A DNA stretch of 64,000 nt, from positions 69,943 through 133,942 of the forward strand of contig CAYMVA010000032.1 of NCBI GenBank assembly GCA_964393745.1, in the 5' to 3' direction. The DNA comes from an uncultured Enterobacteriaceae bacterium (GTDB taxonomy: Bacteria; Pseudomonadota; Gammaproteobacteria; Burkholderiales; SG8-39). Under the pieces are notes generated by a model, which had not been told where the DNA came from, did no database searches, and saw only the letters and a list, made by a program, of their open reading frames with translations. Positions 35,233 through 58,797 of the stretch are shown piece after piece. The position numbers and the translations under genes are program-made. Every line of letters begins with the position of its first letter. Within the stretch, counting starts at the first letter, position 1.

Positions 35233-35236
35233 GGGT

Positions 35237-39983: not shown

Positions 39984-40003
39984 TGGCTTGGCCGAGGGTG
40001 CGC

Positions 40004-40438: not shown

Positions 40439-40558
40439 AAGCCCCTCTTAAATTCCATGGTAGTTCAAGCAGATCACAATATGACCGTGCGCGCTGCACC
40501 GCGCAAGTGGAGTCCTCCCGCAGGTGCTGCATCGCGCATAGAATGAGACCCTAGGATA

Positions 40559-41576: not shown

Positions 41577-43898
41577 GTGAATACTTTTGGATCAGGCAGC
41601 GCGGTCCAGCGCCGTTATCGCGGCATTTCCCGCTACCTGCTTTTGTTTTTGGCGTCGCTGCTTTACGCGACGTGGCCGGCACAGGCCGCCGCCTCCCAGG
41701 AAGAAATGCAGGCGGGAATACGGTCGTTTCGGAACGGCGACTTCACGCAAGCGCTTCAGCACTGGTCGGTCGCGGCGAGTGCCTACGAAGCGGCAGGCAA
41801 CCACGAGGGACAGGCGCTGGCGTTGGTGCGCGGCGCCGAGGCGGAACTGAGCCTTGGCCGCAGCCCGAACGCCTTCGACAAGCTGCAGAAGGCGCAAACC
41901 CTTGCGCAGCGCACTGACAATCAATCGCTGCTGGCAGCCGTCGAGGGCGGTCTCGGCAATGCCTATCTGGCTACCGGTCGCGAGGCCGACGCCGAGCGCA
42001 TGCTGCGTTCGAGCATCGATCGCGCGCGCAAGACGCAGAATGCCGAGGCGGCCGCGCAGGGACTTAACAACCTGGGGAACCTTTTTGCCCTGCAAGGGCG
42101 GTTCGCCGACGCCAGCCGCGTGTACCGGGAAGCGGTCGAGGCGGCATCCAAGGCCGGCAACAAGAGCATCGCCATCCGCGCTTCGACCAACCACGCGCGC
42201 GCTTTGATGGACGATGGCCGGTACGGCGAAGCGATCACCTTGTTGTCGGTTCTGGGTGACCAAACCCGCACCATGGAGCCCTCGCACGAGAAGGCGTACG
42301 GGCTGATCAGCATCGGCCGGCTCTATGTGCGCTTGCTGGGGTCCGGCATTGAGCCCATCGGCGAGTGGAGTGCGCGCGCGCACGCGGCGTTGAACGATGC
42401 GCTGAGCGTTGCCGACGCCATCCAGGACCCGCGCGCTCGCTCGTATGCGCTCGGCTACCTGGGCGAGCTCTACGAGCTGGCCGCGCGCAACGAAGAGGCG
42501 CTGCAATTTACGCAGCGGGCGATCATGGCCGCGCAGATGGCCGATGCCCCGGAGATCCTTTACCTATGGCAATGGCAAAGTGGACGGCTGCTGAAGGCGC
42601 AGGGCAGGACCGAGCAGGCGATTCTCGCCTATCAGCATGCGGTCAATACGCTGAGGTCCGTGCGCCAGGACCTGGCGGCCCGCGGCTCGCGCACGACGTT
42701 TCGCCAATCCGTAGGGCCGGTATTTTTCCAGCTCGCGGACCTGTTGCTCGAGCACTCGGGAACGCTGAGCGATCCGAAGCGGGTGGCGCAGCACCTGGTC
42801 GATGCACGCAGTGCCGTCGAGGTGCTCAAGGGCGCGGAGCTGCAGGACTACTTCCAGGACGACTGCGTGACCGCGCTGCGCGCGAGGACCGCCGGCATCG
42901 ACCGGCTCGCCTCGAACACCGCCGCGCTCTATCCGATCATCCTGCCGGACCGCCTGGAGCTTTTGCTGAGCATGCCCGACGGCATGAAGCGCTTCACGAC
43001 CCGTGTCGGCGCTCAAGAACTCACCAACGAGATCCGGGCGTTCCGCGCGCGCCTCGAGAAACGAACCACGCACCAGTACGTGCCGCATGCGCAAAAGCTG
43101 TATGACTGGCTCATCCGCCCCATTGCGGCCGAGTTGGAGAAGGCCGGCATCGACACGCTCGTGATCGTGCCCGATGCGGCGCTGCGCACCATCCCGCTCC
43201 CGGCGCTGCATGACGGCAAGCAGTTCCTGGTCGCGCGCTTTGCCGTTGCGACCACACCCGGCTTGACGCTGACCGATCCGCGGCCGATACCGCGGGAGAA
43301 AACGAAGGTGATGCTCAACGGCCTGACCGAGTCGGTGCAGGGTTTTTCGTCCCTGCCGTACGTGGCCGAGGAGCTGCAAAACGTCCAGAAACTCTACGGC
43401 GGGACGATCCGCGAAAACAAGCAGTTCACCGTTGAGGCGATGGAAAAAGACCTGGAGCAAACGCCCTACCAGATCGTGCACATCGCCTCGCACGCGCAGT
43501 TCGACAGCGACGTCAACAAGACCTTCCTGCTCACCTACGACGGCAAGCTCGGCATGAACCGCCTCGAGCAGATGCTGGGCATCTCGAAGTTTCGCACCGA
43601 CACCGTGGAGCTGCTGACGCTGAGCGCGTGCGAGACCGCTGTCGGCGACGATCGCGCGGCGCTGGGTCTCGCGGGCGTGGCGCTCAAGGCGGGGGCGCGC
43701 AGCGCGCTCGCCAGCCTCTGGACCGTCAACGACCCGGCTTCGGCGCAACTGGTGTCCGAGTTCTACCGCGGGCTGCAGAATCCGGCGAACTCGAAGGCCA
43801 AGGCGCTGCAGCAGGCGCAACTCGGCCTGCTGAACGACGCGCGCTACCGGCACCCGAATTACTGGAGCGCGTTCCTGCTCATCGGCAATTGGCTCTAG
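41577..43898 (+). CDS. Secreted/periplasmic TPR-repeat protein with a C-terminal CHAT (caspase-like) domain
   Basis: GTG start with an aggagg RBS. Signal peptide LLFLASLLYATWPAQAAAS, then TPR-like repeats. The CHAT dyad contexts are YQIVHIASHAQF (His) and LLTLSACETAVG (Cys), and the protein ends YWSAFLLIGNWL. Confidence 0.88.
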   Translation: MNTFGSGSAVQRRYRGISRYLLLFLASLLYATWPAQAAASQEEMQAGIRSFRNGDFTQALQHWSVAASAYEAAGNHEGQALALVRGAEAELSLGRSPNAFDKLQKAQTLAQRTDNQSLLAAVEGGLGNAYLATGREADAERMLRSSIDRARKTQNAEAAAQGLNNLGNLFALQGRFADASRVYREAVEAASKAGNKSIAIRASTNHARALMDDGRYGEAITLLSVLGDQTRTMEPSHEKAYGLISIGRLYVRLLGSGIEPIGEWSARAHAALNDALSVADAIQDPRARSYALGYLGELYELAARNEEALQFTQRAIMAAQMADAPEILYLWQWQSGRLLKAQGRTEQAILAYQHAVNTLRSVRQDLAARGSRTTFRQSVGPVFFQLADLLLEHSGTLSDPKRVAQHLVDARSAVEVLKGAELQDYFQDDCVTALRARTAGIDRLASNTAALYPIILPDRLELLLSMPDGMKRFTTRVGAQELTNEIRAFRARLEKRTTHQYVPHAQKLYDWLIRPIAAELEKAGIDTLVIVPDAALRTIPLPALHDGKQFLVARFAVATTPGLTLTDPRPIPREKTKVMLNGLTESVQGFSSLPYVAEELQNVQKLYGGTIRENKQFTVEAMEKDLEQTPYQIVHIASHAQFDSDVNKTFLLTYDGKLGMNRLEQMLGISKFRTDTVELLTLSACETAVGDDRAALGLAGVALKAGARSALASLWTVNDPASAQLVSEFYRGLQNPANSKAKALQQAQLGLLNDARYRHPNYWSAFLLIGNWL

Positions 43899-43967
43899 GC
43901 CGCGCATGAACGACGTTGTCTTAACGCGTATACTGCTTCGGTTGACCAAACCAAGGAGGGTCAGGTC

Positions 43968-44720
43968 ATGAAATCTTCAGTCGCCAAAGTCTTTCTCGGC
44001 GTCGCCACTGCCGTGGCGTTAGTCGTAACCACGGCCACCGCCCAGGATTCGAGGAAACCGTCCGGACAGCCCGATGCCCAAGCGCCGGCGACGGGGTCTG
44101 TTGCATACAAGCCGCCCATGCGGGGCGCACCGCTCACGCGCGTGGGCGGAGGCACCCGCAGCGTAGGTGCCAGCGTCCTGACGCTGAACGTGCTCGCGCC
44201 TGGGGAGACTGGCTACACGATGCAGGAAAAGCCGACCATCTACTGGTATGTGTCGGACACGGTCAACAGCCCGGTGGAGCTGACGATCACCAGCACCGCG
44301 AGCCTGCAGGACGCGGCGACGCCGGCGTTCGAGATCACCCTGAAACCGCCGGTCGCCAAGGGCTTTCACGCATTGCGGCTGGCGGACCATGGCATCGCGC
44401 TCAAGCCCGATGTCGAGTACCAGTGGTTCGTCGCGGTGGTGCGCAACCCCGCGCAGCGCTCGCACGACGTGATTGCCGGCGGCACCATCAAGCGGATCGC
44501 CGACAGCGGTGCGGTCGAGCCCAGGCTCAAGCAGACCTCGCAGGCGCAGTGGGCGGCGGTGTATGCGGAAGCGGGCATCTGGTACGACGCGATCGACCAG
44601 TTGTCGAAGCAGATCAGCGCCGACCCCGCCAATCGCCAGCTGCGCGCGCAACGCGCCGCGCTTCTGGAGCAGGTCGGCTTGCGCGAAGCGGCGGCCTTCG
44701 ACCGCAGCTCCGGGAGCTAG
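43968..44720 (+). CDS. DUF928 family secreted protein
   Basis: Signal peptide, then PPMRGAPLTRVGGGTRS, PTIYWYV, YQWFVAV and AGIWYDAIDQL, as I recall for DUF928. RBS aaggaggg. Confidence 0.75.
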   Translation: MKSSVAKVFLGVATAVALVVTTATAQDSRKPSGQPDAQAPATGSVAYKPPMRGAPLTRVGGGTRSVGASVLTLNVLAPGETGYTMQEKPTIYWYVSDTVNSPVELTITSTASLQDAATPAFEITLKPPVAKGFHALRLADHGIALKPDVEYQWFVAVVRNPAQRSHDVIAGGTIKRIADSGAVEPRLKQTSQAQWAAVYAEAGIWYDAIDQLSKQISADPANRQLRAQRAALLEQVGLREAAAFDRSSGS

Positions 44721-44741
44721 GGAGCCTCCGCTCTAGTCCTG

Positions 44742-46469
44742 CTAACGCAGCCAGCCCGGGCGGAAGTTCAGGCGGAAGTACCAGCTATCGTCCTGCAGGC
44801 TGTGGCTGGGCGGATTGGGCACATCGTTGAGCCCCTTGGCGTAGTAAAGCTCGGCCGAAAATTCGGGGCTCGGGTTCCAGATGAGCCCCAGCCCGACGCC
44901 GGTGAGGTGCGACGGGCTGAGGTTTTCCCTGTCCTTGAACTTTGCGCCCCCGGTATCGACGTACGCCGCAGCCTGCAGGTTGCGCGCTCCGGTCGGGTTA
45001 TCGAAAACGGGGATGCGGTATTCGAGCGACGCCGTGTAGCCGCGGTCGCGCAGCAGTTGGAAGGCGCGATAACCGCGCACGCTATCCAGTCCGCCGACCG
45101 CGTACTGCTCCATCGGCAGCAGGGCGTCGTTGGTGAGCTGGAGGTCGGCGCGCAGGCGAAGCTGGTCGCCGCGCTCGCCCAGGAGCTTGACCCACTGAAA
45201 CTGGCCCAGCCATGACACGAAGCGGCTGTCGGGCGCATCCGAGTGGATGGTAGAGCCGAACGCATCGAGCCCGATGCTCACGGTCGAGCGCACGGCGATC
45301 ACCTGCGTGCGGCCGCGGTCCAGGTAATCCCCCACCAGGCGCAGCGCGGATACGACCGCCTTGCCGTCGACCACCCCCGGCGAGAAGGAAAACGGCACGC
45401 CTAGCAGTGACGATTGGGTTTCGCGCCGCTCGAGCACGCCGGCCAGCACGAGTTGCTCGTTGGGCGTCCGAAATACGGGATGGCTGATCTGCCCGCCGAT
45501 CGTTTCCAGCTTGCTCGTGATGTCCAGCACGTTGAACGGCGACTCCACCACTTCGGCCTTGGTCTTTTCGTAGTGCAGGCCGAGCGCCGTGTCCCTCGCC
45601 GTGATGGGCGTGCGATAGCGCAGCTTGAAGTCGTAGGGAATGCCTTGGGCATAACCGAGCTCGACCCCCAACTGATCCCCTCTGCCGGTCAGGTTGTTCA
45701 TCGACCCGAGCAGCGTCAGCTTCGCTTCGCCCAGGCTCGGCGACATCCTGTTGTCGATCACCGCGCCGATGTCGTAACGGGGCGCCTCCTCGACCTTGGC
45801 CTTGAGCACCGCTTCTCCCGGGCGCTCGCCCGGCACCACCTGGGCGTTCAGGCTCTTTACCATCGGATCGCGCAACAGGATCTGCAGCTTCTGCTCGAGC
45901 TCCGGGATGTTCAGAGGCGGCCCGGCGTGCAGCGCGATGCGGTCGCTGAAATACTCCTTGTCGAAGTGCTCGGTGCCCTCGATCTCCATGCGCGTCAGGC
46001 TGCCCTCGACGATGCGGATTTCGATGACGCCGTCGGCGACCTTCTGGTCGGGGATCACCGCGCCCGAGTTGATGTAGCCCTTGCTGACGTAGTGCGCGGT
46101 CAGGCGCTGGCGCAGCTCTTCGAGGTCAGTATTGCTGATCTCGCGATTCTCGAAGGGCGCGGCGATCTTCTCGAGCTCGCCCTCCGGGAAAACGGTGTTC
46201 CCGGTGATGCGGAACTTGCTCACCCGCACCTGCAGGACGGTCGGCAAGCGATCCGCCTCCGGCGGGCTTATCCGCGGAAGCCTGAGCAGCTCGGGCGGCG
46301 GCTTGAGGAACTCGGGCGCCGGCAGGGGCTGCTGCGAGGGCAGGGTTTGCGAGGGAACTTGCGGAACCTGCGCCCAGACGAAATTCGCCGCGGCATGCGC
46401 GAGGAGCAGCGAAAGGCCCGTTACATACCCGGCGAGATCAGATTTCCTGCAGCCTGTTTTTCGATGCAC
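44742..46469 (-). CDS. Two-partner secretion outer-membrane transporter (TpsB; ShlB/FhaC/HecB family)
   Basis: GTG at 46469 gives 575 aa with signal peptide LSLLLAHAAANFVWAQ. POTRA-like region (FRITGNTVFPEGELE...LRQRLTAHYVSKGYINSGAVIP) and a C-terminal beta-barrel ending in an aromatic-rich segment. The start is inferred. Confidence 0.85.
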   Translation of the reverse strand: MHRKTGCRKSDLAGYVTGLSLLLAHAAANFVWAQVPQVPSQTLPSQQPLPAPEFLKPPPELLRLPRISPPEADRLPTVLQVRVSKFRITGNTVFPEGELEKIAAPFENREISNTDLEELRQRLTAHYVSKGYINSGAVIPDQKVADGVIEIRIVEGSLTRMEIEGTEHFDKEYFSDRIALHAGPPLNIPELEQKLQILLRDPMVKSLNAQVVPGERPGEAVLKAKVEEAPRYDIGAVIDNRMSPSLGEAKLTLLGSMNNLTGRGDQLGVELGYAQGIPYDFKLRYRTPITARDTALGLHYEKTKAEVVESPFNVLDITSKLETIGGQISHPVFRTPNEQLVLAGVLERRETQSSLLGVPFSFSPGVVDGKAVVSALRLVGDYLDRGRTQVIAVRSTVSIGLDAFGSTIHSDAPDSRFVSWLGQFQWVKLLGERGDQLRLRADLQLTNDALLPMEQYAVGGLDSVRGYRAFQLLRDRGYTASLEYRIPVFDNPTGARNLQAAAYVDTGGAKFKDRENLSPSHLTGVGLGLIWNPSPEFSAELYYAKGLNDVPNPPSHSLQDDSWYFRLNFRPGWLR

Positions 46470-46488
46470 TTTGGACGAACCCGCGCCC

Positions 46489-49400
46489 CTAGCGCGAGCA
46501 GTCCCGATAGTCTGCCATAGCCAGCGCGAGCGCGTAACGCGGCCCATCGGGGCCGGCATCGGCCCTGACCGGCCCGCGGGCACCCGCCAGACCGGTGGCG
46601 ACGTCCGAACCGAAACTCGGCAGGTAGCCACCCGCGTCGACCGGGACCCCGCCGCGGCCCGCGACCACGAACGAGCTCGGCGCCCCCGTGCGCCGCGCCG
46701 AGCACAGGCCGCGCAGCTGGCTGCTTGCATCGAGGAACGCCGCCGGCAGTTGCCCGATGCTGCTCTCGACGTTGTTGTCCGGCGATACGATCTGGATCAC
46801 GCCGGGCGTGCTCAAGGCGGACGACGCCTCTATCACGCTGGTTATGCTGGCGAGGAAATTGTCGGCGATGATGGTGATATTGCCGCCCGGGCCGCCGAAC
46901 GCATTGGCGATGATCGAGCTGTTGTTCAGGATGACGAACTGCGGATCGATCAGGATGTTGCCGCCCTGGCCCAGGCCACCCGCGACGCTGGTGCTGATGA
47001 CGCTGTCCTGGAGCTGCACCATGAACGGCGCCTTGAGCGTAATGTTGCCGCCGTCCGCCGTGAGCGCCTGCGTGGTGATCTGGCCGTTGTTGAGATAGAT
47101 CTCGCTGCCCGAGGTGATCGTGACGCTGCCGGCCTCGCCCAAGCCCGACACGATGCTTCCGCCAAGTGGTCCGCCGCTGTCTGCTTTGAGGCGCCCGCCG
47201 TCAAGGATCGCGACCCGGTTGCCGGCGTTCAGCACCACGTCGCCCCCCTTGCCGTCGCCGAAGGTGCTCGTAGAAACCACGCTGTCCTGGCCGGATATAG
47301 TGATGGCGCTGCCAGCGGCGATCCCCACGGTGCCGCCAGCACCGGTGCCCACGGCTACCGCTCCGCCGAGCAACCCGCCGCTCTCGGAAGCGGCCTTGCC
47401 ACCGCTTTGGACGTCGACTTGGTTGGCGCTCAGGGTGACGTTGCCTCCGGCCCCATCGCCGAACGTCGTCGTGGATACCGTGCTGCCCGGACCCGAGATG
47501 TTGATCGCGTTGCCTGCCGAGATCGAGACGCTGCCGCCGCTGCCGGTGCCTACGGCGACGGTTCCACCGAGCAATCCGCCGCTTTCGCCGACGACGCGCC
47601 CGCCGTTCAGGACCGCAACCTGGTTGCCGGCGGTCAGCGTCACGTCACCGCCACTGCCGTCGCCGAATGTGCTCGTGGAGATGGCACTACCCTGGCCAGA
47701 TACTGTAATCGTGTCACTAGCCGAAACCATCACGCTACCGGCGCTGCCCGAGCCGACGCCGATCGAGCCGTCGAGGAACTCGACGCCGCTGCGGCTGCGA
47801 ATGGCACCGCCGTCCAATACCGACAGCGTGCCGACATTGCCCACCACGCTGCCGGCATTGCTTTCCCATCCGGTCGATGTCTCGATCCGCGTGCCGGCGT
47901 TCAGCGTCAACGCTGGCGTCGTGATCGAAACCGCACCGGCGTTACCCGGCGTGAGAGGCGGGTTTGGAATATCCACCCAAAATGGCGCCACATCCGTCGG
48001 AGTGAAAGTTGTCCAGTCAAATCCATGGCTGCGCAGGTAGGCAAGGACCTCCATCAACTTGGCGCTGGGATTTCCCATTTCCGCGCGGAAATCATCGAAG
48101 GTGCGGAAGAACACCGAATTGAATAAATCGTTCAGTTGATCGTCGGGCGGCTGGAAGGTCGCGCCCACGATGCGGGCGTCAGAGCCGGAGAGCGTGATTG
48201 GCCCGCCGGCCGTCAACGTGATGTTGCCCGCATTGCCCGCACCAAAGGTGGTGCTGGTAATACGGCCGCCATCCTTCACCGCGATCGACCCGGCGGCTTT
48301 GATCGTAATGTTGCCCGAATCGCCCGCGAAACTGCTCTGCGAGCCGATCAGCGCGCTCTGCGGATCGCCGGTGCCCGCTACCAGGACACTGCCAGCGTTG
48401 ATCGTAATATCGCCGGCGCGCCCGAAGTTACGGCTATCCGTCGTGATTTGGCCCAGGCCACTGACTGCCAGGCTGTCGCTCGCGTTGATCGTGATGTTCC
48501 CGCTGTTGCCGGTAATGAGTTGGCCTTCCATGCTGCTGAACGGATAGGCCGGATTGCGCAGGCCTTGGGCCGCGAGCCCCTCGAATGCGAATGGGCTGTC
48601 GCTACCGTTACCTGACACGTCCACCTGTCTGGCGTTGATCGTCAGGCTCGGGCCCTCGCCCTCGATGGCGTTAATAAGCACGATCGATCCGCCGCTTCCC
48701 ACACTCACCTTGTCCGCGTTGATAGTGACGTGGCCAGCTTCGCCGGGCGCGTTGCGCTGCACCTGGATGCCCGCGAATCCCGAAATCGACACGGAGCCCG
48801 CGTTGATCGTCACGTCGGGCACCTTGGCGGCTGGCGCGACGTAGTTGCCCAAAGGATCCCCCGTATAGACGAAGATCCCTGGAGGCGCGAACGTCAGCAG
48901 CTCTCTCGCAGAACCAGTGATCGTCACCGCATCGGTTACCTTGATGTTCACCTGCCCGCCGTCCGGCAACGGCGAAAAACCGACGAACGAGAGTTCGAAC
49001 GCAAAGGCCCCGGGCAGCACGACGCCGTCATTGATTGCTAGATTGCCGCCGCGGATGAAGATCTCCTTGCCGTCCACTATGCTGCCAGGCCCGACCTTGA
49101 TGCTTCCCAACTTCGAGAAGCCGTCGACATTGAATCCGACCCCATCGAAAGTCGCTTCCCCAGCAGAAGCGACGCTCACCAGATTGACACGGCCGCCCGG
49201 TGCCACCACGTAGCCCGGTGTGCTGCCGTCCAGGGCGCCGATGCTGACCCCCGGAATATCACTTCCCGGGGCGTTGCCGCCGACCAGCGACAGCGTTTGC
49301 TCTTGCGGCACCATCAGCTGTGCAGCTGGGTAGAAGATGGAGAAGTCGATGCCTCCCGTCTGTACCTCGATTGGCTTGGGATTCGCCGAGAGAAAACCAA

Positions 49401-49923
49401 AAGCCGAGGGCGGTGAGGTCGTGAGCACGGTCGCCTGCGCCGGGTCTGCGTAGAAGATGCCGTCATTGCCAAGCTTGATGTAGTCGGCCGTCGTGGCGTG
49501 AAACGAGCCGCCGACGTCGAGCCGCGCGGTCGGCCCGAAGATGATGCCGGCGGGGTTCATCAGGAACAGATTGGCGGTCCCGAAATCGAGCGTGTTGATG
49601 GTGCCGAAGATGTTCGAGGGGTTTCCGGCCGTGACACGGGCCAAGATGTTCGCGGTGGCCGGGGCAGCGGGACTGTTGAGGAAGTTGGCGCTCTCGCCCG
49701 TGTTCACACTGAAGTTGCCGAAGCTGTGGAACAGATTCGTTCCGCCGCTTGGCCTCGTGCCTCCGGTGATGTTGTAGGTACCCGCCACAGGCTGGTCGAC
49801 CGCCGTACCGAGGCCGCTGGGAGTCACCTGGGCATGGCTGACAGAGGGCAGGCCGCTCGAAGTGCAAAGCAGCGTACCCACCAGCACAGCCTGAAATCTG
49901 CCGCCGCAACGTCGCGTGGTCAT
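46489..49923 (-). CDS. TpsA-type exoprotein with an N-terminal haemagglutination-activity (TPS) domain and a beta-helical passenger
   Basis: Signal peptide, TPS motifs GGTNLFHSFGNFSV and FLMNPAGIIFG, then long Gly/Ser/Thr/Asn beta-helix repeats. 1144 aa. Strong RBS gtgaggag. Confidence 0.88.
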   Translation of the reverse strand: MTTRRCGGRFQAVLVGTLLCTSSGLPSVSHAQVTPSGLGTAVDQPVAGTYNITGGTRPSGGTNLFHSFGNFSVNTGESANFLNSPAAPATANILARVTAGNPSNIFGTINTLDFGTANLFLMNPAGIIFGPTARLDVGGSFHATTADYIKLGNDGIFYADPAQATVLTTSPPSAFGFLSANPKPIEVQTGGIDFSIFYPAAQLMVPQEQTLSLVGGNAPGSDIPGVSIGALDGSTPGYVVAPGGRVNLVSVASAGEATFDGVGFNVDGFSKLGSIKVGPGSIVDGKEIFIRGGNLAINDGVVLPGAFAFELSFVGFSPLPDGGQVNIKVTDAVTITGSARELLTFAPPGIFVYTGDPLGNYVAPAAKVPDVTINAGSVSISGFAGIQVQRNAPGEAGHVTINADKVSVGSGGSIVLINAIEGEGPSLTINARQVDVSGNGSDSPFAFEGLAAQGLRNPAYPFSSMEGQLITGNSGNITINASDSLAVSGLGQITTDSRNFGRAGDITINAGSVLVAGTGDPQSALIGSQSSFAGDSGNITIKAAGSIAVKDGGRITSTTFGAGNAGNITLTAGGPITLSGSDARIVGATFQPPDDQLNDLFNSVFFRTFDDFRAEMGNPSAKLMEVLAYLRSHGFDWTTFTPTDVAPFWVDIPNPPLTPGNAGAVSITTPALTLNAGTRIETSTGWESNAGSVVGNVGTLSVLDGGAIRSRSGVEFLDGSIGVGSGSAGSVMVSASDTITVSGQGSAISTSTFGDGSGGDVTLTAGNQVAVLNGGRVVGESGGLLGGTVAVGTGSGGSVSISAGNAINISGPGSTVSTTTFGDGAGGNVTLSANQVDVQSGGKAASESGGLLGGAVAVGTGAGGTVGIAAGSAITISGQDSVVSTSTFGDGKGGDVVLNAGNRVAILDGGRLKADSGGPLGGSIVSGLGEAGSVTITSGSEIYLNNGQITTQALTADGGNITLKAPFMVQLQDSVISTSVAGGLGQGGNILIDPQFVILNNSSIIANAFGGPGGNITIIADNFLASITSVIEASSALSTPGVIQIVSPDNNVESSIGQLPAAFLDASSQLRGLCSARRTGAPSSFVVAGRGGVPVDAGGYLPSFGSDVATGLAGARGPVRADAGPDGPRYALALAMADYRDCSR
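47137..47745 (-). repeat. Three tandem repeats of about 67 aa (about 200 bp) inside the tpsA coding sequence
   Basis: The units share ISG-x-GS-x-(I/V)STxTFGDGxGG(D/N)V-(10 or 11 aa)-GG-(5 aa)-(E/D)SGG(L/P)LGG, spanning roughly aa 727-929. Confidence 0.6.
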
Positions 49924-49971
49924 AGAGTTCTCCTCACCTGCCCAGGCCCCGCGTTGTCAATGGCACCGCAG

Positions 49972-49998
49972 TCCTGCGCCCCCTTCGGGAGCGCAGGA
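49972..49998 (-). other. Strong stem-loop between the Cys-rich gene and tpsA (intra-operon RNA structure or partial terminator)
   Basis: tcctgcgc (49972..49979) pairs with gcgcagga (49991..49998). There is no U-tract. Confidence 0.4.
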
Positions 49999-50010
49999 TT
50001 CGCTGCTAGG

Positions 50011-51654
50011 TCACCATTGGACGATGCTGATATTGGGGAAATCCGTCGTGAAATCGAACGGAAAACTGCCCGCCGGGTTTTGCACGGTCGTTCCGCTCAA
50101 ATGCAGGGTAACGGTGGGCGGATTCGTGGGATTGTGAACTCGGATGGCCGCCGCCAGCTCCGGACATCTCCGGTACACCAAGCGAAGCCCATACTTCAAG
50201 GGAACGGTGCTGATAACAAAATTCTGAATTGGCGCCTCTATTGGGGCAATGCCTTCGAGCTTCGGCGCTGCGGAAAGGGGCGAGATCAGGATGTCGGTAT
50301 TCGCCAACGAAACCTGATCTGGGATCGTTACTTGGAGTTTGCCCGCGTTGAGGTCGCCGGCGCCCCCGCAGGCGACATTGATGGTGCCTTGATCTATCGT
50401 GGCCAAGATGTCGTTATTACCCAGCTTAATCTTTTCGACGTCCTGGGTGCCCGTGTGGAGCACTTTTTGGGTGGAGGTGATCCCACATATGCGCAACTGA
50501 TTGTCAAACCCTTCGCCAGGACTCGGCAAATCACCAGTGAAGATTCCACCCCCATTGACGAGGTTGGTGTTGTCACTGAACAAGCCGACGTCCGACTGGC
50601 AGTAGCGCGCGTACGCCTCCTTCGGGGTTCCCTTTACGTATGACGTCGGCGGTGATAATTCCGGTAGGGTCGGCAGCCTCGTCGTCGGGTCGCAGGACCC
50701 CACGGTGGAGACTTCCTTATAGACCAGCAGCTGCCCTACCGTCATTGGCTGAATCTGGCCCGAATCCAACGCGTTCGGAACGGAGGCGACACTCGGAAAC
50801 GCGGTATTACACGCAGTGGTGTCGACGACAAACGTGGTGGTCTTGCCTTTCGTCACGTATTTCCCGGGAATCCCGCCGAGCTGCATGGTGCACGCGCCAG
50901 CTTCGAAACGTGTCTGGCTGCAGGGCCCAGTGAAATCGGGTATCGCGGTGGTTATCAGCTCCTTAAGCGTCAGAAAACCTTCCACCTTGACGCCGTTGCC
51001 GCAGGCGAACGTGTAATTAAGCTCGGTCCCAACGACGGGGGGGTTCGAAGAGGAGTCCCTGCAGGTGCGGAGGGCGAAGGCCGTACTCGTGTCGCCCGGT
51101 TTGTGCTTGGGATTCTGCAGGTCCGTAAAGGTGCCGCAGTTGTTGCCGATTCCCGAGTTGGCGTCTTCGCATGCCAACGGAGCGGTGGATTCATATTTGA
51201 CGCTGAAATCGAACTTTCCGCTCCCGTACGGCGCGTCTGCGTGGTGTTCAGGCAGAAATGGTACGGGTGGGCTAGAAGTTCCCGTCTGATTCCACCCACT
51301 GCACGTAGCATAGTTACCCGCTCCGACCACCTCCTGCGTCACCCTGATCGGTTTATTCAAATCACCAGGCACACCCGGTTCGGACGACCACTGGCCTTGG
51401 AATTCCGTCCAAGTACATTTGATAGCCTGTCCGTGGTGGCTGATGTAGGTGATGCTGCCGCCCACGGTCTGGGTGCTGCAGCTGGTGGAAATTTTCGTCC
51501 AGCCAGTAGGGCACACGGCGTTGTTCGTGCAGGCCCTGGCGCCCGTCGAGCTGCGGCAGGTTATCGCGGCGAAGGCATCCTGCACCAGCGATAACCCGAG
51601 CACCGCAAATGCGAAGGCCGAAAGGGATTTAACGAATGAGTAACGGCTGATCAT
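50011..51654 (-). CDS. Orphan secreted cysteine-rich protein (547 aa, 18 Cys); I recognise no family
   Basis: Signal peptide AFAFAVLGLSLVQDAFA and RBS aaggaga. Hand-counted GC is about 52-63% per line, against about 65-72% in neighbouring genes. It is the first gene of the tpsA-tpsB transcription direction. Confidence 0.7.
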   Translation of the reverse strand: MISRYSFVKSLSAFAFAVLGLSLVQDAFAAITCRSSTGARACTNNAVCPTGWTKISTSCSTQTVGGSITYISHHGQAIKCTWTEFQGQWSSEPGVPGDLNKPIRVTQEVVGAGNYATCSGWNQTGTSSPPVPFLPEHHADAPYGSGKFDFSVKYESTAPLACEDANSGIGNNCGTFTDLQNPKHKPGDTSTAFALRTCRDSSSNPPVVGTELNYTFACGNGVKVEGFLTLKELITTAIPDFTGPCSQTRFEAGACTMQLGGIPGKYVTKGKTTTFVVDTTACNTAFPSVASVPNALDSGQIQPMTVGQLLVYKEVSTVGSCDPTTRLPTLPELSPPTSYVKGTPKEAYARYCQSDVGLFSDNTNLVNGGGIFTGDLPSPGEGFDNQLRICGITSTQKVLHTGTQDVEKIKLGNNDILATIDQGTINVACGGAGDLNAGKLQVTIPDQVSLANTDILISPLSAAPKLEGIAPIEAPIQNFVISTVPLKYGLRLVYRRCPELAAAIRVHNPTNPPTVTLHLSGTTVQNPAGSFPFDFTTDFPNISIVQW

Positions 51655-51855: not shown

Positions 51856-52779
51856 TTGTCGCTGCCGCAGGGTCACCTCGTCAAGGGCCTCGGCTGGATC
51901 GCGCTCGCGATCCTGTGCTGGGCGCCGCTGTTCCCGACCGCCAAGCGGGCGCTGCCGTTCGTGGATGCGTTCGCGCTCGGCACGCTGCGCTACGCGATCG
52001 GCACGGTGCTTTTCATAGCGCTGCTGGTCGCGTTCGAGGGGCGGCGGGCGCTGCGCTACGACGGGCGCTTCGTGGCAGCGGCGCTGTTCGGCGTCATCGG
52101 CATCACCGGCTTCAACACTCTCGTTTGGTACGGGCTCACCTACACGCGCCCGGAGCATGGAGCCATCATCATGAGCCTGCAAACGCCGCTCACCGCGCTT
52201 GCTGTGTGGCTGACGCGCGGCCTGCGCCCGGCGCGCTTCACGCAGGCGTGCATCGCGCTGGCGCTTTTCGGCGTGTTCCTGGTGGTCACCAAGGGCAGCC
52301 TTGCGAGCGCGTTCGAGGGCGGCGCGCTCGCCGGCGACCTGGTGATCCTTCTCGGTGCGCTAAGCTGGGTGATCTACACCATCGCCGGGGCGCGCTTCTC
52401 CGGCTGGTCGCCGCTGCGCTTCACCGTGCTCACCTGCCTGCCCGGTGCGGCGGGGCTTTTCATCGTCAATGGCGTCGCAATCGCAGCGGGCATTGCGGTA
52501 GTGCCGAGCGTTGCTGCGGTCGCCGAGATCGGCTGGCAGATCGCCTATTTCGCGGTCTGCACCGTGGTGCTCGGTGTGCTGGGCTTCAATTTCGCGGTGA
52601 AGTATCTCGGCGCGCTCAACACCATGCTGATGCTCAATCTGATCCCGGTGTCGGTGTTCGTGATCGAGGCGGTGCTCGGGCGCCAATTCGCCGCCATCGA
52701 GATCGCCGGCGGCGCGGTGGTGATCGGCGCGCTGGTCGCCAACAACCTCTATCTGCGCCAGGTCAGCGCGCGGGCGTGA
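51856..52779 (+). CDS. EamA/DMT-family transporter
   Basis: Ten-TM-like profile, 307 aa, TTG start. The last 4 codons lie inside direct repeat DR-A. Confidence 0.8.
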   Translation: MSLPQGHLVKGLGWIALAILCWAPLFPTAKRALPFVDAFALGTLRYAIGTVLFIALLVAFEGRRALRYDGRFVAAALFGVIGITGFNTLVWYGLTYTRPEHGAIIMSLQTPLTALAVWLTRGLRPARFTQACIALALFGVFLVVTKGSLASAFEGGALAGDLVILLGALSWVIYTIAGARFSGWSPLRFTVLTCLPGAAGLFIVNGVAIAAGIAVVPSVAAVAEIGWQIAYFAVCTVVLGVLGFNFAVKYLGALNTMLMLNLIPVSVFVIEAVLGRQFAAIEIAGGAVVIGALVANNLYLRQVSARA

Positions 52780-52805: not shown

Positions 52806-54778
52806 GCAGAATGTGATCGCATGTATGATCAATCGCCCGATCCGGAGCGCGTGCAGTGATTGCCAAGTGGCTTGAATGGCTGCGCAAGCCGACGCCTGTC
52901 AGCCTTGCGCTGGGATTTGCCGCGACCCTTCTTGTCATCGGTCTGCGCAGCGCGGGATTTCTTCAGTTCGTCGAGCTGGCGACTTACGACGCCTACCTGC
53001 GCGTGAAAGAGCACCAGAGTGTGCCGGAACCGCGCATCGTGCTGGTGCAAACGGTCGAGGAAGACATCCAGAAGCTCGGCGAGTGGCCGATCTCCGACCG
53101 CCGCATGGCCGAGGTGTTGAAGAAAGTTCTGGCCAGCAACCCGCGCGCTGTAGGCGTGGATCTGTATCGCGATATCCCGGTGCCGCCCGGCAGTGACGAA
53201 TTGAGCGCCTTGCTGACCGGCGACAAGCGCGTCATCTTCATCGAGAAGTTTGGCAAGGACAGCAGCAAGCGTGTCGCGGGTCCCGCCGCCTTGCGTGGCA
53301 CCGAGCGGATCGGATTTTCGGATGTCACCCCTGACGACGACGGGGTGGTGCGCCGCGGGCTGCTGTTTCTGGATGACGGCAAGACCTCGTCAACGTCGCT
53401 TGCGTTGCGCCTTGCGCTCGCCTACCTGGCCGAAGAAGGCGTCACACCACAGCCCGATGCCGACGACCCGACGCACATCCGCCTCGGCCGGGTGACGCTA
53501 CGGCCGTTCGAGGCGGACGACGGGGGCTACGTCGGCGCGGATGCTCAGGGGTATCAATATCTGCTCGATTTCCGGGGTGGCGCGCAGCGTTTCAAGACTT
53601 ACTCGCTAAGCGAGGTGTTGGAAGGCCGCGTGGAGCCGAATTTGATCAAGGGCAGCGTCGTAATTTTCGGGGTCAATGCAGAAAGCGTGAAGGACGAGTT
53701 CCTGACACCGTTCGACCGTTTCACCCGGCGCGGCCACGCCACCGCGGGAATTGCCGTGCACGGCTACGAGGTTAGCCAGCTCATTCGCGGCGCCCTGCAA
53801 GGCGACGTGCCCATACGGTTCCTGAGTGACCGTTTCGAAAACCTGTGGATCTTGCTCTGGAGCCTCGCCGCCGCGATGGTGGGAAAGTTTGCGCGCAGCA
53901 CCGTGCGCTTTTCGCTGTCCACGGCGGCCGGGCTGCTCCTTCTCGTAGGCGCGACCCTGTTCGCGTTCCTCGAGCACTGGTGGCTGCCGGTCGCGCCGGC
54001 CGCCATCGTCTGGCTGGGTTCGGCGGGCCTGGTGACTGCATTCCTCTCCGGGCACGAGCGGCAGGAGAAGAAGTTCCTGATGGATCTGTTCTCCAGAAGC
54101 GTCTCGCCGGCGATCGCCGACGAGATGTGGAAACAGCGCGCCAGTTTCATCAAGGGCGGCAGGCTCGAGCCGCAGACGATGACCGTCACGATCCTGTTTT
54201 CGGATCTGGCGGGCTTCACCACGGTTTCGGAACGCCTGACCCCCGCGCAACTGATGGACTGGCTGAACCAGTACATGGAAACCATGGCGGGATTGGTGAT
54301 CAAGCACGGCGGGGTGGTGGATGACTATTATGGCGATGCGATCAAGGCCAACTTCGGCGTGCCCTTGCCTCGCACCAGCGCCGAGGAAATCCGCCAGGAC
54401 GCCGCCAACGCCATGCGCTGTGCCTTGGACATGCGGCGGGAAATGGAACAGCTGGTCGCATCCTGGTCCGCCCAAGGCGCGCCGCTGGTCAAGGTGCGCG
54501 TAGGCATTGCCACGGGGCCGGTGGTGGCGGGCTGCCTCGGCAGCGCGCAGCGGATGAAGTACACAACCATCGGCGACGTCGTCAATACGGCCGCGCGGCT
54601 CGAGAGCTACGGCAAGGAGATTCCCGAGCACCTGGTCAATCCCTATTGCCAGGTCATGGTGGCAGCCTCGACGGTGGCGCAACTCGATGGCGAGTTCAAG
54701 CTCGAGCCGATCGGGACCCTGCAGCTGAAAGGCAAGACACAGGGCGTGGACGTGTTTGCCCTGCTCGGTACTAAAGAG
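52806..54778 (+). other. Putative inserted segment (1973 bp) carrying the cyclase gene, bounded by the 38-bp direct repeats
   Basis: It lies exactly between DR-A and DR-B. Hand-counted GC is lower, about 48-62% per line. The cyclase ORF has no stop of its own and terminates inside DR-B. Confidence 0.6.
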
Positions 54779-54790
54779 GCGCGGGCGTGA
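52856..54790 (+). CDS. CHASE2 sensor domain - class III adenylate/guanylate cyclase
   Basis: N-terminal TM helix, a periplasmic CHASE2-like region, a TM cluster, and a cyclase domain (VTILFSDLAGFTTVSE...YYGDAIKANFG...TTIGDVVNTAARLE). GTG start. Confidence 0.88.
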   Translation: MIAKWLEWLRKPTPVSLALGFAATLLVIGLRSAGFLQFVELATYDAYLRVKEHQSVPEPRIVLVQTVEEDIQKLGEWPISDRRMAEVLKKVLASNPRAVGVDLYRDIPVPPGSDELSALLTGDKRVIFIEKFGKDSSKRVAGPAALRGTERIGFSDVTPDDDGVVRRGLLFLDDGKTSSTSLALRLALAYLAEEGVTPQPDADDPTHIRLGRVTLRPFEADDGGYVGADAQGYQYLLDFRGGAQRFKTYSLSEVLEGRVEPNLIKGSVVIFGVNAESVKDEFLTPFDRFTRRGHATAGIAVHGYEVSQLIRGALQGDVPIRFLSDRFENLWILLWSLAAAMVGKFARSTVRFSLSTAAGLLLLVGATLFAFLEHWWLPVAPAAIVWLGSAGLVTAFLSGHERQEKKFLMDLFSRSVSPAIADEMWKQRASFIKGGRLEPQTMTVTILFSDLAGFTTVSERLTPAQLMDWLNQYMETMAGLVIKHGGVVDDYYGDAIKANFGVPLPRTSAEEIRQDAANAMRCALDMRREMEQLVASWSAQGAPLVKVRVGIATGPVVAGCLGSAQRMKYTTIGDVVNTAARLESYGKEIPEHLVNPYCQVMVAASTVAQLDGEFKLEPIGTLQLKGKTQGVDVFALLGTKEARA

Positions 54791-57185: not shown

Positions 57186-57200
57186 ACGTTCAAGAATACC

Positions 57201-57336
57201 GAAAATCGGGGACAGAGCCCGATTTCCAGACAATCGGGGTCAGAGCCCGATTTCGGTTCGGTAAATCGCTTTGTGCGATTTTGCGCAAAATCGCCCCGGG
57301 CGATTTGCCCGAAATCGGGCTCTGTCCCCGATTTTC
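57201..57336. repeat. Repeat family A cluster (nested hairpins)
   Basis: gaaaatcggggacagagccc, caatcggggtcagagccc, internal aaatcgc/gcgattt hairpins, and the inverted unit gggctctgtccccgattttc. Confidence 0.8.
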
Positions 57337-57387
57337 CAGAATCTGCTATATAACTGGTTGGTTACACGGCTCACAGGAGGCCCGCCG

Positions 57388-58710: not shown

Positions 58711-58714
58711 CGAA

Positions 58715-58735: not shown

Positions 58736-58797
58736 TTTGGGCCGCCGGGGCCGCGGCACTTTCGCGCCGCGGCTGGCAAGGATCTCGATCCGGGCGA

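What the first reader, a model, noticed from the sequence alone, without database searches (positions are those of the whole stretch)
41577..51654. CHAT protease, DUF928 and a two-partner secretion pair with an orphan Cys-rich exoprotein: an uncharacterised envelope module
Five adjacent genes all encode exported proteins.
- A 773-aa protein has a Sec signal peptide, a TPR-like N-half and a CHAT domain with intact His (HIASHA) and Cys (LSACET) contexts.
- A DUF928 protein follows it.
- On the convergent strand lie a 547-aa 18-Cys orphan, a 1144-aa TpsA (TPS motifs NLFHSF and NPAGIIFG) and a 575-aa FhaC/ShlB-type TpsB.

From memory, CHAT, DUF928, haemagglutinin-N-domain and ShlB genes co-occur in cyanobacterial genomes. 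I know of no assigned function for that combination, and finding it in a high-GC proteobacterial context is unusual. An extracytoplasmic caspase-like protease next to its own dedicated outer-membrane export pathway suggests a processing, activation or contact-dependent system.
Basis: partly seen in the sequence, partly recalled or inferred. Interest (0 to 1): 0.82.

Follow-up and report, generated by a model that had tools for sequence, protein, structure and literature searches.

The report
Envelope signalling module feeding CHASE2 cyclase
These genes belong to a widely conserved, apparently unstudied unit: an outer-membrane secretion pair, a periplasmic caspase-like protease, a small adaptor protein (DUF928) and an inner-membrane CHASE2 cyclase, which most likely carries a signal from the cell surface into the cell and could help show what CHASE2 sensors detect.

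Summary
All five genes are real and the family assignments hold: TPR-CHAT, DUF928, TpsB, TpsA, and an 18-Cys protein.

A CHASE2-class III cyclase lies at 52856-54790, just outside the given coordinates.

- **Conservation.** Of 26 DUF928 loci from other genomes with full 10-kb flanks, 26 carry the CHASE2-cyclase, 24 TpsA, 22 TpsB, 22 CHAT, and 20 carry all four. The records are labelled as about ten phyla. Annotated cyanobacterial plasmids show the same five genes.
- **Transducer is swappable.** Cyanobacteria use CHASE2-histidine kinase or CHAT-CHASE2. Another variant replaces CHASE2 with an ECF sigma factor plus an anti-sigma factor whose periplasmic domain is DUF928. TpsA, TpsB and CHAT stay with it.
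- **DUF928 fold.** It models as an Ig-like plus TPR-like fold. The best match is MtxA (PDB 4Z29), another periplasmic protein encoded next to a CHASE2 cyclase.
- **Cys-rich protein.** It is not an orphan. It has 28 homologues besides itself, and all four examined sit just upstream of the module's tpsA.

Best reading: a two-partner-secretion-based cell-surface signalling pathway with a periplasmic protease relay and a cyclic-nucleotide output. The mechanism is inferred, not shown. No held paper describes the module.

The parts
41577..43898 (+). Periplasmic TPR-CHAT cysteine protease (773 aa). It has a Sec-like N-terminus, TPR repeats at about residues 45-360 and a CHAT domain at 504-771. The catalytic residues are His639 and Cys685.
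   Evidence: Pfam. Dyad conservation. N-terminal hydrophobic segment. Present in 22 of 26 fully flanked DUF928 loci.
43968..44720 (+). DUF928 protein (250 aa). It has a signal peptide and a disordered N-terminal stretch with the invariant motif YKPPMRGAPLTRVGGGTRS (residues 47-65, nt 44106-44162). An Ig-like sandwich (73-176) and a five-helix TPR-like domain (183-247) follow.
   Evidence: Pfam. Alignment. AlphaFold model with pLDDT 85.9. Best fold match is MtxA, PDB 4Z29, E=2e-5.
44742..46469 (-). TpsB outer-membrane transporter (575 aa, GTG start). It has POTRA domains and a ShlB/Omp85 barrel.
   Evidence: Its best plasmid matches are all cyanobacterial TpsB genes, many annotated next to CHAT genes, at 29-39% identity across the cyanobacterial rows.
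46489..49923 (-). TpsA exoprotein (1144 aa). It has a TPS secretion domain, Gly-rich beta-helix-type repeats and a conserved C-terminal tail: LRGLC (1070-1074), SSFVVAGRGGVP (1083-1094) and DCSR (1141-1144). The tail spans nt 46492-46716. These are the only two Cys residues of the mature protein.
   Evidence: The tail motif is also kept in cyanobacterial members.
50011..51654 (-). Lineage-specific Cys-rich secreted protein (547 aa, 18 Cys, 11 of them invariant in its family). It occupies the slot immediately upstream of tpsA.
   Evidence: Homologues hold the same position in L002, L087, L088 and L089. The model is all-beta with pLDDT 75.8 and has no PDB fold match. GC3 is 0.71 against 0.80-0.89 for its neighbours.
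52856..54790 (+). Inner-membrane CHASE2 receptor fused to a class III nucleotide cyclase (644 aa).
   Evidence: Pfam CHASE2 1.6e-54 and Guanylate_cyc 1.2e-25. Hydrophobic segments flank the CHASE2 domain. Catalytic Asp450/Asp494 are kept in 58 of 58 and Asn577/Arg581 in 57 of 58 family members. Present in 26 of 26 fully flanked DUF928 loci.
51856..52779 (+). EamA-family transporter gene lying between the Cys-rich gene and the CHASE2 cyclase gene. It is probably an interloper and not part of the module.
   Evidence: Pfam. L002 has no called gene with an EamA hit at this position. L003 was annotated only with the module HMMs, so an EamA gene there is not excluded.

Best explanation
The locus encodes a trans-envelope (cell-surface) signalling pathway.

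1. TpsB exports TpsA, which forms a surface-exposed fibre. The conserved Cys-bracketed C-terminal tail of TpsA stays in or below the TpsB pore, facing the periplasm.
2. A change at the surface alters what the periplasmic TPR-CHAT protease can reach. The change could be binding, pulling, damage or loss of TpsA, possibly involving the variable protein encoded upstream of tpsA.
3. The protease cuts a module protein. The best candidates are the invariant Arg/Gly/Pro motif in the disordered N-terminus of DUF928 and the TpsA tail.
4. DUF928, an Ig-like plus TPR-like adaptor, is the periplasmic partner of the CHASE2 domain. Its processing or release switches the cytoplasmic cyclase.
5. The cyclic nucleotide acts on cNMP-binding effectors.

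**Shown here:** the families, intact catalytic residues, conserved gene linkage across many lineages, interchangeable transducers, the DUF928 fold and the conserved linear motifs.

**Inferred:** the locations of the proteins, who binds or cuts whom, and the direction of signal flow.
For: 1. **Linkage.** Of 26 DUF928 loci with full 10-kb flanks, 26 have the CHASE2-cyclase, 24 TpsA, 22 TpsB, 22 CHAT, and 20 have all four. Several are single co-directional operons in the order TpsA, TpsB, CHAT, CHASE2-cyclase, DUF928.
2. **CHASE2 and DUF928 are the tightest pair.** The cyclase gene is the immediate upstream same-strand neighbour in 43 of 82 loci. In 14 of 46 loci where it is adjacent, a candidate DUF928 start overlaps the cyclase stop by 4 or 1 nt. 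Cyanobacterial plasmids show the same CHASE2-then-DUF928 order.
3. **The transducer is swapped while the rest stays.** Partners seen are CHASE2-histidine kinase and cytoplasmic CHAT-CHASE2 fusions in cyanobacteria. In another variant an ECF sigma factor pairs with a ZAS-type anti-sigma factor whose periplasmic domain is DUF928. All 3 such loci examined carry a module-type TpsA. Two of them (L092, L093) also carry TpsB, one (L093) carries TPR-CHAT, and none has CHASE2. This is the logic of cell-surface signalling.
4. **Motif position.** In the anti-sigma fusion P0204, and in P0300 by pattern match, the motif lies between the Pro/Ala-rich membrane linker and the folded domain. That is where a site-1 cut would lie. 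Other fusions carry diverged versions, and the pattern search missed four of five further family members.
5. **Enzymes look active.** The CHAT dyad and the cyclase metal and transition-state residues are conserved.
6. **Output.** cNMP-binding proteins are encoded beside the module in 22-25 loci. They include Crp-type regulators, a Ser/Thr kinase, a symporter and a patatin.
7. **Fold.** The best fold match of DUF928 is MtxA, a periplasmic protein encoded next to a CHASE2-adenylate cyclase.
8. **Precedent.** In S. meliloti the CHASE2 cyclase CyaK needs the outer-membrane protein NsrA, encoded directly upstream, to respond to a peptidic signal (PMC7529298, PMC13001267).
Against: - There is no experimental datum for any member of the module.
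- No cNMP-binding gene was found in the 64-kb window, and no Crp-like sites lie near the module.
- In the window the genes are not one operon. There are two convergent units, and the cyclase is separated from them by an EamA gene.
- The substrate of CHAT is unknown. The two linear motifs could be docking sites rather than cleavage sites.
- The base-specifying cyclase position is variable (Asp, Lys or Gln) and is Asp in the window, so the product is uncertain.
- The 80 loci are the closest relatives of this DUF928. Linkage across the whole family, 4425 clusters at 50% identity, was not measured.
- The neighbourhood annotation used HMMs grown from the window's own proteins and a crude ORF caller.
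Confidence: 0.6

Rival explanations
1. A Lap-like adhesin retention and release system. TpsA is a surface adhesin held in TpsB by its disulphide-bracketed C-terminal tail. The periplasmic CHAT protease cuts the tail to shed it. DUF928 and CHASE2 control or report protease availability, and the cyclic nucleotide coordinates expression. This overlaps with the best explanation. It differs in seeing adhesin release, not information transfer, as the main purpose.
For: There is precedent for a TpsA whose periplasmic C-terminal tail is cut by a periplasmic cysteine protease under control of an inner-membrane second-messenger protein: CdrA/CdrB with LapG and LapD (PMC4694147, PMC5422565). The window's mature TpsA has only two Cys, both in the conserved tail. 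The same pair occurs in 17 of 33 family members.
Against: - CHASE2-cyclase has a catalytic cytoplasmic output, so information must flow inwards. LapD is a receptor with no output enzyme.
- The ECF sigma/anti-sigma variant is a gene-expression switch, not a release device.
- No LapG or LapD homologues are in the module, and no TAAG site is in the tail (read).
- Ten of 33 TpsA proteins have only one tail Cys.
Confidence: 0.2
2. An envelope-surveillance defence system. Phage adsorption or envelope breach at TpsA triggers the CHASE2 cyclase to make a cyclic nucleotide that activates a toxic effector, in the manner of Pycsar or CBASS.
For: The cyclase domain matches Pycsar PycC models at 2.5e-26. 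One neighbouring effector is a cNMP-binding patatin phospholipase. CHAT and caspase domains are common in conflict systems (PMC8195603).
Against: - The PycC score equals the generic Pfam Guanylate_cyc score (90.7 against 90.6 bits), so it shows family membership only.
- No other component matches a PADLOC model, apart from a generic TPR hit and a weak BovA hit (E=0.00043) on the CHAT protein.
- Three of the ten neighbouring effectors scanned are Crp-type regulators, and a kinase-fused and a transporter-fused form also occur.
- The window holds no effector.
- The CHAT protease here has an export signal, unlike cytoplasmic death effectors.
Confidence: 0.05
3. A sortase-like surface attachment system. 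CHAT, a caspase-fold enzyme like GPI transamidase, acts as a transpeptidase. It removes the conserved C-terminal signal of TpsA and links TpsA to an envelope polymer or to DUF928.
For: TpsA carries a short, strongly conserved C-terminal motif (SSFVVxGRGGxP) across phyla, which resembles a sorting signal. That caspase-fold enzymes can act as transpeptidases is general knowledge and was not tested here. One DUF928 protein is fused to a peptidoglycan-binding domain.
Against: It does not explain the constant CHASE2 or anti-sigma partner. No acceptor is evident, and no CHAT-family transpeptidase is known to me.
Confidence: 0.05
4. A classical TPS toxin or contact-dependent inhibition system in which CHAT activates a toxic TpsA C-terminus.
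For: The TPS pair has an adjacent protease.
Against: - The TpsA C-terminus is conserved across phyla rather than polymorphic.
- TpsA has no VENN or LYN pre-toxin motif.
- There is no small immunity-like gene after tpsA, because tpsB follows within 20 nt.
- The constant partners are signalling proteins.
Confidence: 0.03

Closest known systems
Sinorhizobium meliloti NsrA - CyaK/CyaD1/CyaD2 - Clr pathway
   Same: A CHASE2-class III cyclase in the inner membrane needs an outer-membrane protein encoded directly upstream in order to respond to an external peptidic signal. The output is a cyclic nucleotide read by a Crp-type regulator (PMC7529298, PMC13001267). CyaK has the same CHASE2 plus cyclase architecture as the window protein.
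   Different: NsrA is a single protein with a FecR domain, TPR repeats and a C-terminal barrel. It is not a TpsA/TpsB pair. The 18.9-kb region around nsrA-cyaK has no gene annotated as CHAT or DUF928. A profile comparison found no relation between DUF928 and the FecR region of NsrA.
MtxA and the adjacent CHASE2-adenylate cyclase of Magnetospirillum (PDB 4Z29)
   Same: MtxA is a periplasmic protein with a long flexible N-terminal part followed by an Ig-like and a TPR-like domain. Its gene lies next to a CHASE2-adenylate cyclase gene (PMC4439547). It is the best structural match of the DUF928 model, with E=2e-5 and target-normalised TM 0.61.
   Different: The DUF928 profile detects no sequence similarity to it. 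MtxA precedes the cyclase gene, whereas DUF928 usually follows it. Whether the mtxA locus also has TPS and CHAT genes was not checked. The function of MtxA is unknown.
FecA-FecR-FecI type cell-surface signalling
   Same: An outer-membrane component, a periplasm-facing receiver and a cytoplasmic output. The ECF sigma plus anti-sigma-DUF928 variant of the module has the same sigma/anti-sigma logic. That anti-sigma factors of this type are released by regulated proteolysis is established knowledge.
   Different: The outer-membrane part is a TpsA/TpsB pair, not a TonB-dependent transducer. The receiver domain is DUF928, not FecR. The module carries its own caspase-like protease. In the window the output is a cyclase, not a sigma factor.
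CdrA/CdrB with LapG and LapD (Pseudomonas aeruginosa)
   Same: A TPS exoprotein whose periplasmic C-terminal tail is cut by a periplasmic cysteine protease, coupled to an inner-membrane second-messenger protein (PMC4694147, PMC5422565).
   Different: LapG is a transglutaminase-like protease, not a CHAT protease. LapD binds c-di-GMP and signals outwards. Here the membrane protein makes a nucleotide, so the signal goes inwards. The lapG and lapD genes are not part of the cdrAB locus.
TPR-CHAT protease Csx29 of type III-E CRISPR (Craspase)
   Same: The same two-part architecture, TPR repeats followed by a CHAT protease domain, used as a switchable site-specific protease in a signalling relay. This comparison is from general knowledge.
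   Different: Csx29 is cytoplasmic and RNA-activated. The window protein has an export signal and no CRISPR context. No solved CHAT structure matched it by sequence.

Membership tests
Two-partner secretion (type Vb) system | TpsA with an N-terminal TPS secretion domain | tested here: met
   PF05860 E=8.3e-39 over residues 32-283, and TIGR01901 E=5.5e-21.
Two-partner secretion (type Vb) system | TpsB with POTRA domains and a ShlB/Omp85 barrel, encoded next to tpsA | tested here: met
   POTRA_2 1.3e-22, ShlB 3.5e-20 and Omp85 4e-13. The tpsB start lies 20 nt after the tpsA stop.
Two-partner secretion (type Vb) system | TpsB-dependent export of TpsA | not testable with these tools
   This needs a secretion assay in a tpsB mutant.
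CHAT (caspase-haemoglobinase fold) proteases | CHAT domain with the catalytic His and Cys | tested here: met
   PF12770 E=4.5e-62. His639 and Cys685 are kept in at least 95% of 50 module members.
DUF928 (PF06051) | Match to the family profile above its curated cut-off | tested here: met
   119 bits against a cut-off of 26.
CHASE2 transmembrane receptors | CHASE2 domain flanked by membrane segments, with a cytoplasmic output domain | tested here: met
   PF05226 E=1.6e-54 over residues 23-340. Hydrophobic segments lie at 12-30, 350-368 and 377-395. The cyclase occupies 441-629.
Class III adenylate/guanylate cyclases | Two metal-binding Asp residues and the transition-state Asn and Arg | tested here: met
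   Asp450 and Asp494 are kept in 58 of 58, and Asn577 and Arg581 in 57 of 58 family members.
Class III adenylate/guanylate cyclases | Lys/Asp (adenine) or Glu/Cys (guanine) base-specifying pair | tested here: not met
   The window has Asp490 and Thr570. Position 490 varies among Asp, Lys and Gln in the family. The product therefore cannot be named.
Contact-dependent inhibition (CdiA/CdiB, BcpA/BcpB) | Pre-toxin motif (VENN or LYN), polymorphic C-terminal toxin and a downstream immunity gene | tested here: not met
   No such motif is present. The C-terminus is conserved across phyla. tpsB follows tpsA directly.
FecIRA-type cell-surface signalling | TonB-dependent transducer, FecR-type anti-sigma factor and ECF sigma factor | tested here: not met
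   None of the three is in the window's module. Variant loci have an ECF sigma and a ZAS anti-sigma fused to DUF928 but still no TonB-dependent transducer. The resemblance is in logic, not membership.
Lap system (LapG/LapD-controlled adhesins) | LapG-type protease, LapD receptor and a TAAG-type cleavage site in the adhesin | tested here: not met
   No such domains are in the six proteins. No TAAG occurs in the TpsA tail (read).
Pycsar anti-phage system | PycC cyclase with an adjacent cNMP-binding effector (membrane or TIR type) | tested here: not met
   The cyclase matches PycC models at family level only. No cNMP-binding ORF occurs anywhere in the window.

The most novel reading that the evidence does not exclude
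CHASE2 domains may not be small-molecule sensors. They may be receivers of a protein-borne signal made by a dedicated machine: a surface TpsA fibre, its TpsB pore and a periplasmic caspase-like protease that processes DUF928 or the TpsA tail into a tethered or released peptide ligand. That would be a bacterial counterpart of protease-activated receptors. The same TPS, CHAT and DUF928 input unit would then be a portable front end wired to cyclases, histidine kinases, cytoplasmic CHAT proteases or ECF sigma factors in many bacterial phyla.
Probability: 0.3. Interest if true: 0.85.

Novelty: new variant of a known kind. Interest (0 to 1): 0.75.

Why it matters
CHASE2 has been a catalogued sensor domain since 2003, yet papers as late as 2023 still state that its ligands are unknown (PMC10581220). 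The only functional lead is the S. meliloti NsrA-CyaK pathway, which responds to a protein signal.

This work identifies a fixed set of partner genes for a large class of CHASE2 receptors. It also shows that the same partners serve an ECF sigma/anti-sigma pair instead. Together these give concrete, testable candidates for what CHASE2 reads: DUF928 and a protease product.

If the reading is right, several things would follow:
- DUF928 (4425 clusters at 50% identity) would gain a role.
- An extracytoplasmic job would be defined for CHAT proteases.
- A signalling function would be added to two-partner secretion.

The module occurs in culturable cyanobacteria (Nostoc punctiforme, Pseudanabaena), so experiments are feasible.

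Tried and rejected
- **Apparent CHAT-CHASE2-cyclase fusion in L043.** The 1377-aa ORF is an artefact. A masked run of N bridges two genes.
- **DUF928 versus the FecR region of NsrA.** A profile comparison gave probability 0.2%, so there is no relation.
- **DUF928 profile against PDB sequences.** No hit was found. Only the fold search found MtxA.
- **Full CHAT protein against PDB sequences.** Only TPR proteins matched.
- **Fold search of the Cys-rich protein model.** Nothing was below E=1e-3. Its role stays unknown.
- **Crp-box search (TGTGA-N6-TCACA, up to 2 mismatches).** There were 2 matches in the window against 12 expected by chance, and none lay near the module.
- **Promoter and terminator scan of 40.4-55 kb.** Counts were no higher than in shuffled sequence, so operon boundaries were not resolved.
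- **PADLOC.** Only generic cyclase and TPR matches, plus one weak BovA match, were found.
- **First alignment for the genome scan (A1).** It was too diverse to seed the scan. A2 was used instead.
- **Papers not held.** Garnerone 2018 (NsrA) and Tian 2012 were unavailable. NsrA domains were therefore determined directly from a pSymB record.
- **Similarity between the two linear motifs.** The TpsA tail (GRGGVP) and the DUF928 N-terminus (RGAP...RVGGGTR) are both Arg/Gly/Pro-rich. The resemblance is too short to test, and I do not rely on it.

Full report
**1. The observation.** Profile searches confirm every family assignment.
- The 773-aa protein has TPR repeats followed by a CHAT domain (PF12770, E=4.5e-62).
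- The 250-aa protein is DUF928 (PF06051, E=2.7e-34).
- The 1144-aa protein has a TPS secretion domain (PF05860, E=8.3e-39; TIGR01901).
- The last ORF has POTRA_2, ShlB and Omp85 domains.

The TpsB ORF is open for 662 codons. A GTG at 46469, 20 nt after the tpsA stop, gives the 575-aa protein with a signal-like N-terminus. The quoted motifs are at the quoted contexts. The 547-aa protein has 18 Cys and no Pfam or NCBIfam match. All five have an N-terminal hydrophobic segment stronger than 99% of the rest of the protein. That fits export, although no dedicated predictor was available.

**2. A sixth member was missed.** At 52856-54790 (+), after an EamA transporter gene, lies a 644-aa protein with an N-terminal membrane segment. 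It has a CHASE2 domain (E=1.6e-54), further membrane segments and a class III nucleotide cyclase (E=1.2e-25). Two close relatives of the locus in Burkholderiales metagenome contigs have the same set: CHASE2-cyclase, TPR-CHAT, DUF928, ShlB-type TpsB, TpsA and an unannotated gene upstream of tpsA.

**3. Conservation elsewhere.** DUF928 is a large family, with 4425 clusters at 50% identity at E<=1e-3. A scan of one genome per species returned at least 537 confirmed relatives. The 80 best were fetched with 10-kb flanks.

I called ORFs and searched them with profiles grown iteratively from the window's proteins. Results for the 26 loci with full flanks on both sides:

| Partner | Loci with it (of 26) |
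|---|---|
| CHASE2-cyclase | 26 |
| TpsA | 24 |
| TpsB | 22 |
| CHAT | 22 |
| All four | 20 |

Two of the loci lacking CHAT (L047, L054) have the module running into the edge of the fetched stretch, so CHAT may lie just beyond it. Several Desulfobacterota loci are single co-directional operons in the order TpsA, TpsB, CHAT, CHASE2-cyclase, DUF928 (L028, L036, L053, L055).

The record titles span Beta-, Gamma- and Alphaproteobacteria, Desulfobacterota, Myxococcota, Verrucomicrobiota, Nitrospirota/Nitrospinota and Rokubacteria. Single MAGs are labelled Chloroflexota, Spirochaetales and Bifidobacteriaceae. MAG labels can be wrong.

NCBI-annotated cyanobacterial plasmids show the same five genes side by side: Pseudanabaena ABRG5-3 and Nostoc UHCC 0302. 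N. punctiforme and Nostoc NIES-3756 show CHASE2 followed directly by DUF928. The window's TpsB is closer to cyanobacterial TpsB genes, many annotated next to CHAT genes (29-39% identity), than to the best proteobacterial plasmid TpsBs listed (about 24-26%).

The idea that a proteobacterial setting is unusual is wrong.

**4. The tightest pair is CHASE2 with DUF928.**
- The cyclase gene is the immediate upstream same-strand neighbour of DUF928 in 43 of 82 loci. CHAT holds that place in 16, as in the window.
- In 14 of the 46 loci where the cyclase is adjacent, a candidate DUF928 start overlaps the cyclase stop by 4 or 1 nt. This suggests coupled translation.

**5. The transducer is interchangeable.**
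- In cyanobacteria the linked CHASE2 protein ends in a histidine kinase (Pseudanabaena). In Nostoc it carries a cytoplasmic N-terminal CHAT domain instead of a cyclase.
- DUF928 also occurs fused in cis to ZAS-type anti-sigma factors. Their order is an HxxxCxxC zinc-finger motif, one membrane helix, a Pro/Ala-rich linker and then the DUF928 domain. In P0204 and P0300 the linker ends in a recognisable copy of the conserved motif.
- All three such loci inspected have an ECF sigma gene immediately upstream and a module-type TpsA. L092 and L093 also have TpsB, and L093 has TPR-CHAT. None has CHASE2.
- A peptidoglycan-binding-DUF928 fusion and tandem DUF928 proteins also exist.

The simplest reading is that TpsA, TpsB, CHAT and DUF928 form an input unit. 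It can be wired to different cytoplasmic outputs.

**6. The parts in more detail.**
- *CHAT.* His639 and Cys685 are kept in at least 95% of 50 family members, and the whole TPR-CHAT architecture is conserved. The protein has no TPS domain. It is therefore not a TpsB cargo, and with its Sec-type N-terminus it is most likely periplasmic.
- *DUF928.* The AlphaFold model (pLDDT 85.9) shows a low-confidence N-terminal stretch (residues 27-70). This stretch carries the family's most conserved linear motif, PPxRGAPxxRVGGGTR. An Ig-like sandwich and a five-helix TPR-like domain follow.
- *DUF928 fold match.* The only strong fold matches (E<=1e-3) in the PDB are the two chains of 4Z29, the C-terminal Ig-like plus TPR domain of Magnetospirillum MtxA (E=2e-5). 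MtxA is a periplasmic protein whose gene lies next to a CHASE2-adenylate cyclase gene (PMC4439547). The relation is not detectable by sequence.
- *Motif in cyanobacteria.* Cyanobacterial DUF928 proteins keep a recognisable version of the motif.
- *TpsA.* The C-terminal ~70 residues are conserved across phyla: LRxxCxxR...SSFVVxGRGGxPxxP. The window's mature TpsA has only two Cys, at 1074 and 1142, bracketing this tail. The same pair is seen in 17 of 33 family members, and 10 have only the first Cys. There is no pre-toxin motif and no immunity-like gene.
- *Cyclase.* The metal-binding Asp residues and the Asn/Arg pair are essentially invariant. The base-specifying position is variable and is Asp in the window, so the product cannot be named.
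- *Output.* cNMP-binding proteins are encoded next to the module in 22-25 loci. They include Crp-type regulators, a Ser/Thr kinase, a symporter and a patatin. None was found in this window.

**7. The Cys-rich protein.** It is not an orphan.
- The search returned 29 proteins at E<=1e-3 including the window's own, so it has 28 homologues. Two carry source names, from Beta- and Gammaproteobacterial metagenome genomes. Eleven Cys are invariant.
- In all four homologue loci examined (L002, L087, L088, L089) the gene sits immediately upstream of the module's tpsA.
- Other lineages fill that slot with unrelated secreted proteins.
- Its model is an all-beta multi-domain protein with no significant PDB match.
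- Its GC3 (0.71) is below that of its neighbours.

I regard it as a lineage-specific accessory, perhaps a partner or specificity factor of TpsA. Its role is open.

**8. Mechanism.** The best-supported explanation is a two-partner-secretion-based cell-surface signalling pathway with a periplasmic protease relay into a CHASE2 cyclase. Section Best explanation sets it out.
- *Shown:* family identities, intact catalytic residues, conserved linkage, interchangeable transducers, the fold of DUF928 and the conserved linear motifs.
- *Inferred:* protein locations, physical contacts, the CHAT substrate and the direction of flow.

The position of the DUF928 motif in two anti-sigma fusions, between the membrane linker and the folded domain, is where a site-1 cut would lie. 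This is my main reason to favour DUF928 as a CHAT substrate, but it is an inference.

The chief rival is a Lap-like adhesin release device, following the precedent of CdrA/CdrB with LapG and LapD (PMC4694147, PMC5422565). The two readings can coexist. The catalytic cytoplasmic output and the sigma-factor variant argue that information flows inwards. Defence, sortase-like and toxin-delivery readings are less likely (see rivals).

**9. Comparison with what is known.** The closest studied system is S. meliloti NsrA-CyaK-Clr. There a CHASE2 cyclase depends on an outer-membrane protein encoded directly upstream and responds to a peptidic signal (PMC7529298, PMC13001267). I retrieved nsrA-cyaK from a pSymB record. 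NsrA is a FecR domain plus TPR repeats plus a C-terminal barrel. It is therefore a different front end on the same kind of receptor.

In the held library no paper mentions DUF928 with CHAT. Only one mentions DUF928 at all, in passing. None of the top-ranked papers from a search combining 'CHAT domain' with TPS terms contained 'CHAT domain'. A 2023 paper still calls CHASE2 ligands unknown. Absence from this library does not prove that the module has never been noted in a database or a subscription journal.

**10. Verdict.** The module is a widespread, apparently uncharacterised variant of trans-envelope signalling. It is interesting mainly because it turns the open question of what CHASE2 senses into a short list of testable interactions.

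**Caveats.**
- The sampled loci are the nearest relatives of this DUF928.
- Neighbourhood annotation used home-grown profiles and simple ORF calling.
- Taxon labels come from MAG records.
- There are no expression or biochemical data.

Noticed in passing
window 33322-41527: A type II secretion or type IV pilus-like cluster lies directly upstream of the module. It includes a secretin with TPR, STN and FecR_C-like N-terminal parts, a T2SSE ATPase, a T2SSF platform protein and a cohesin-domain protein with a signal-like N-terminus. The relative L002 also has a Secretin_N gene about 10 kb from its module.
   Followed up: partly
window 50011-51654: The Cys-rich gene has lower GC3 (0.71) than all its neighbours (0.80-0.89), and the region's GC falls to 0.59. 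This fits fast evolution or separate acquisition of the slot gene.
   Followed up: partly
window about 49950-49990: A 7-bp inverted repeat (CCTGCGC...GCGCAGG) lies between the stop of the Cys-rich gene and the tpsA start. No T-run follows it. It might modulate read-through into tpsA.
   Followed up: no
L013, L016, L018, L021 (Rhodoferax loci); L001:16414-17706; L093:11368-12657: The slot just upstream of the module's tpsA holds unrelated secreted proteins in different lineages. These are a ~314-aa family in Rhodoferax, an unrelated 430-aa protein in L001, and a VCPO_2nd-domain protein in the sigma-factor variant.
   Followed up: partly
L083:10678-13251 and L086:4584-6941: Nostoc CHASE2 proteins linked to DUF928 carry an N-terminal CHAT domain with no export signal. 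A second, apparently cytoplasmic CHAT protease therefore seems to be the receptor's output there.
   Followed up: partly
L056:1192-3525, L040:721-2130, L043:10673-12142, L036:10597-12546: cNMP-binding domains next to the module are fused to very different effectors: a patatin phospholipase, Ser/Thr kinases and a Na/sulfate-type symporter. A GAF-like family recurs in 6 loci.
   Followed up: partly
window 51856-52779: An EamA-family transporter gene sits between the Cys-rich gene and the CHASE2 cyclase gene. The relative L002 has no EamA-annotated gene at this position. L003 was not checked for one.
   Followed up: no
window 54771-60708: Downstream genes look unrelated to the module: a penicillin amidase family protein, a PHB depolymerase and a mechanosensitive-channel family protein.
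   Followed up: no
L043:5654-9787: A masked run of N in this genome record joins the CHAT and CHASE2-cyclase genes into one false 1377-aa ORF. Automated domain-fusion screens could be misled by it.
   Followed up: yes
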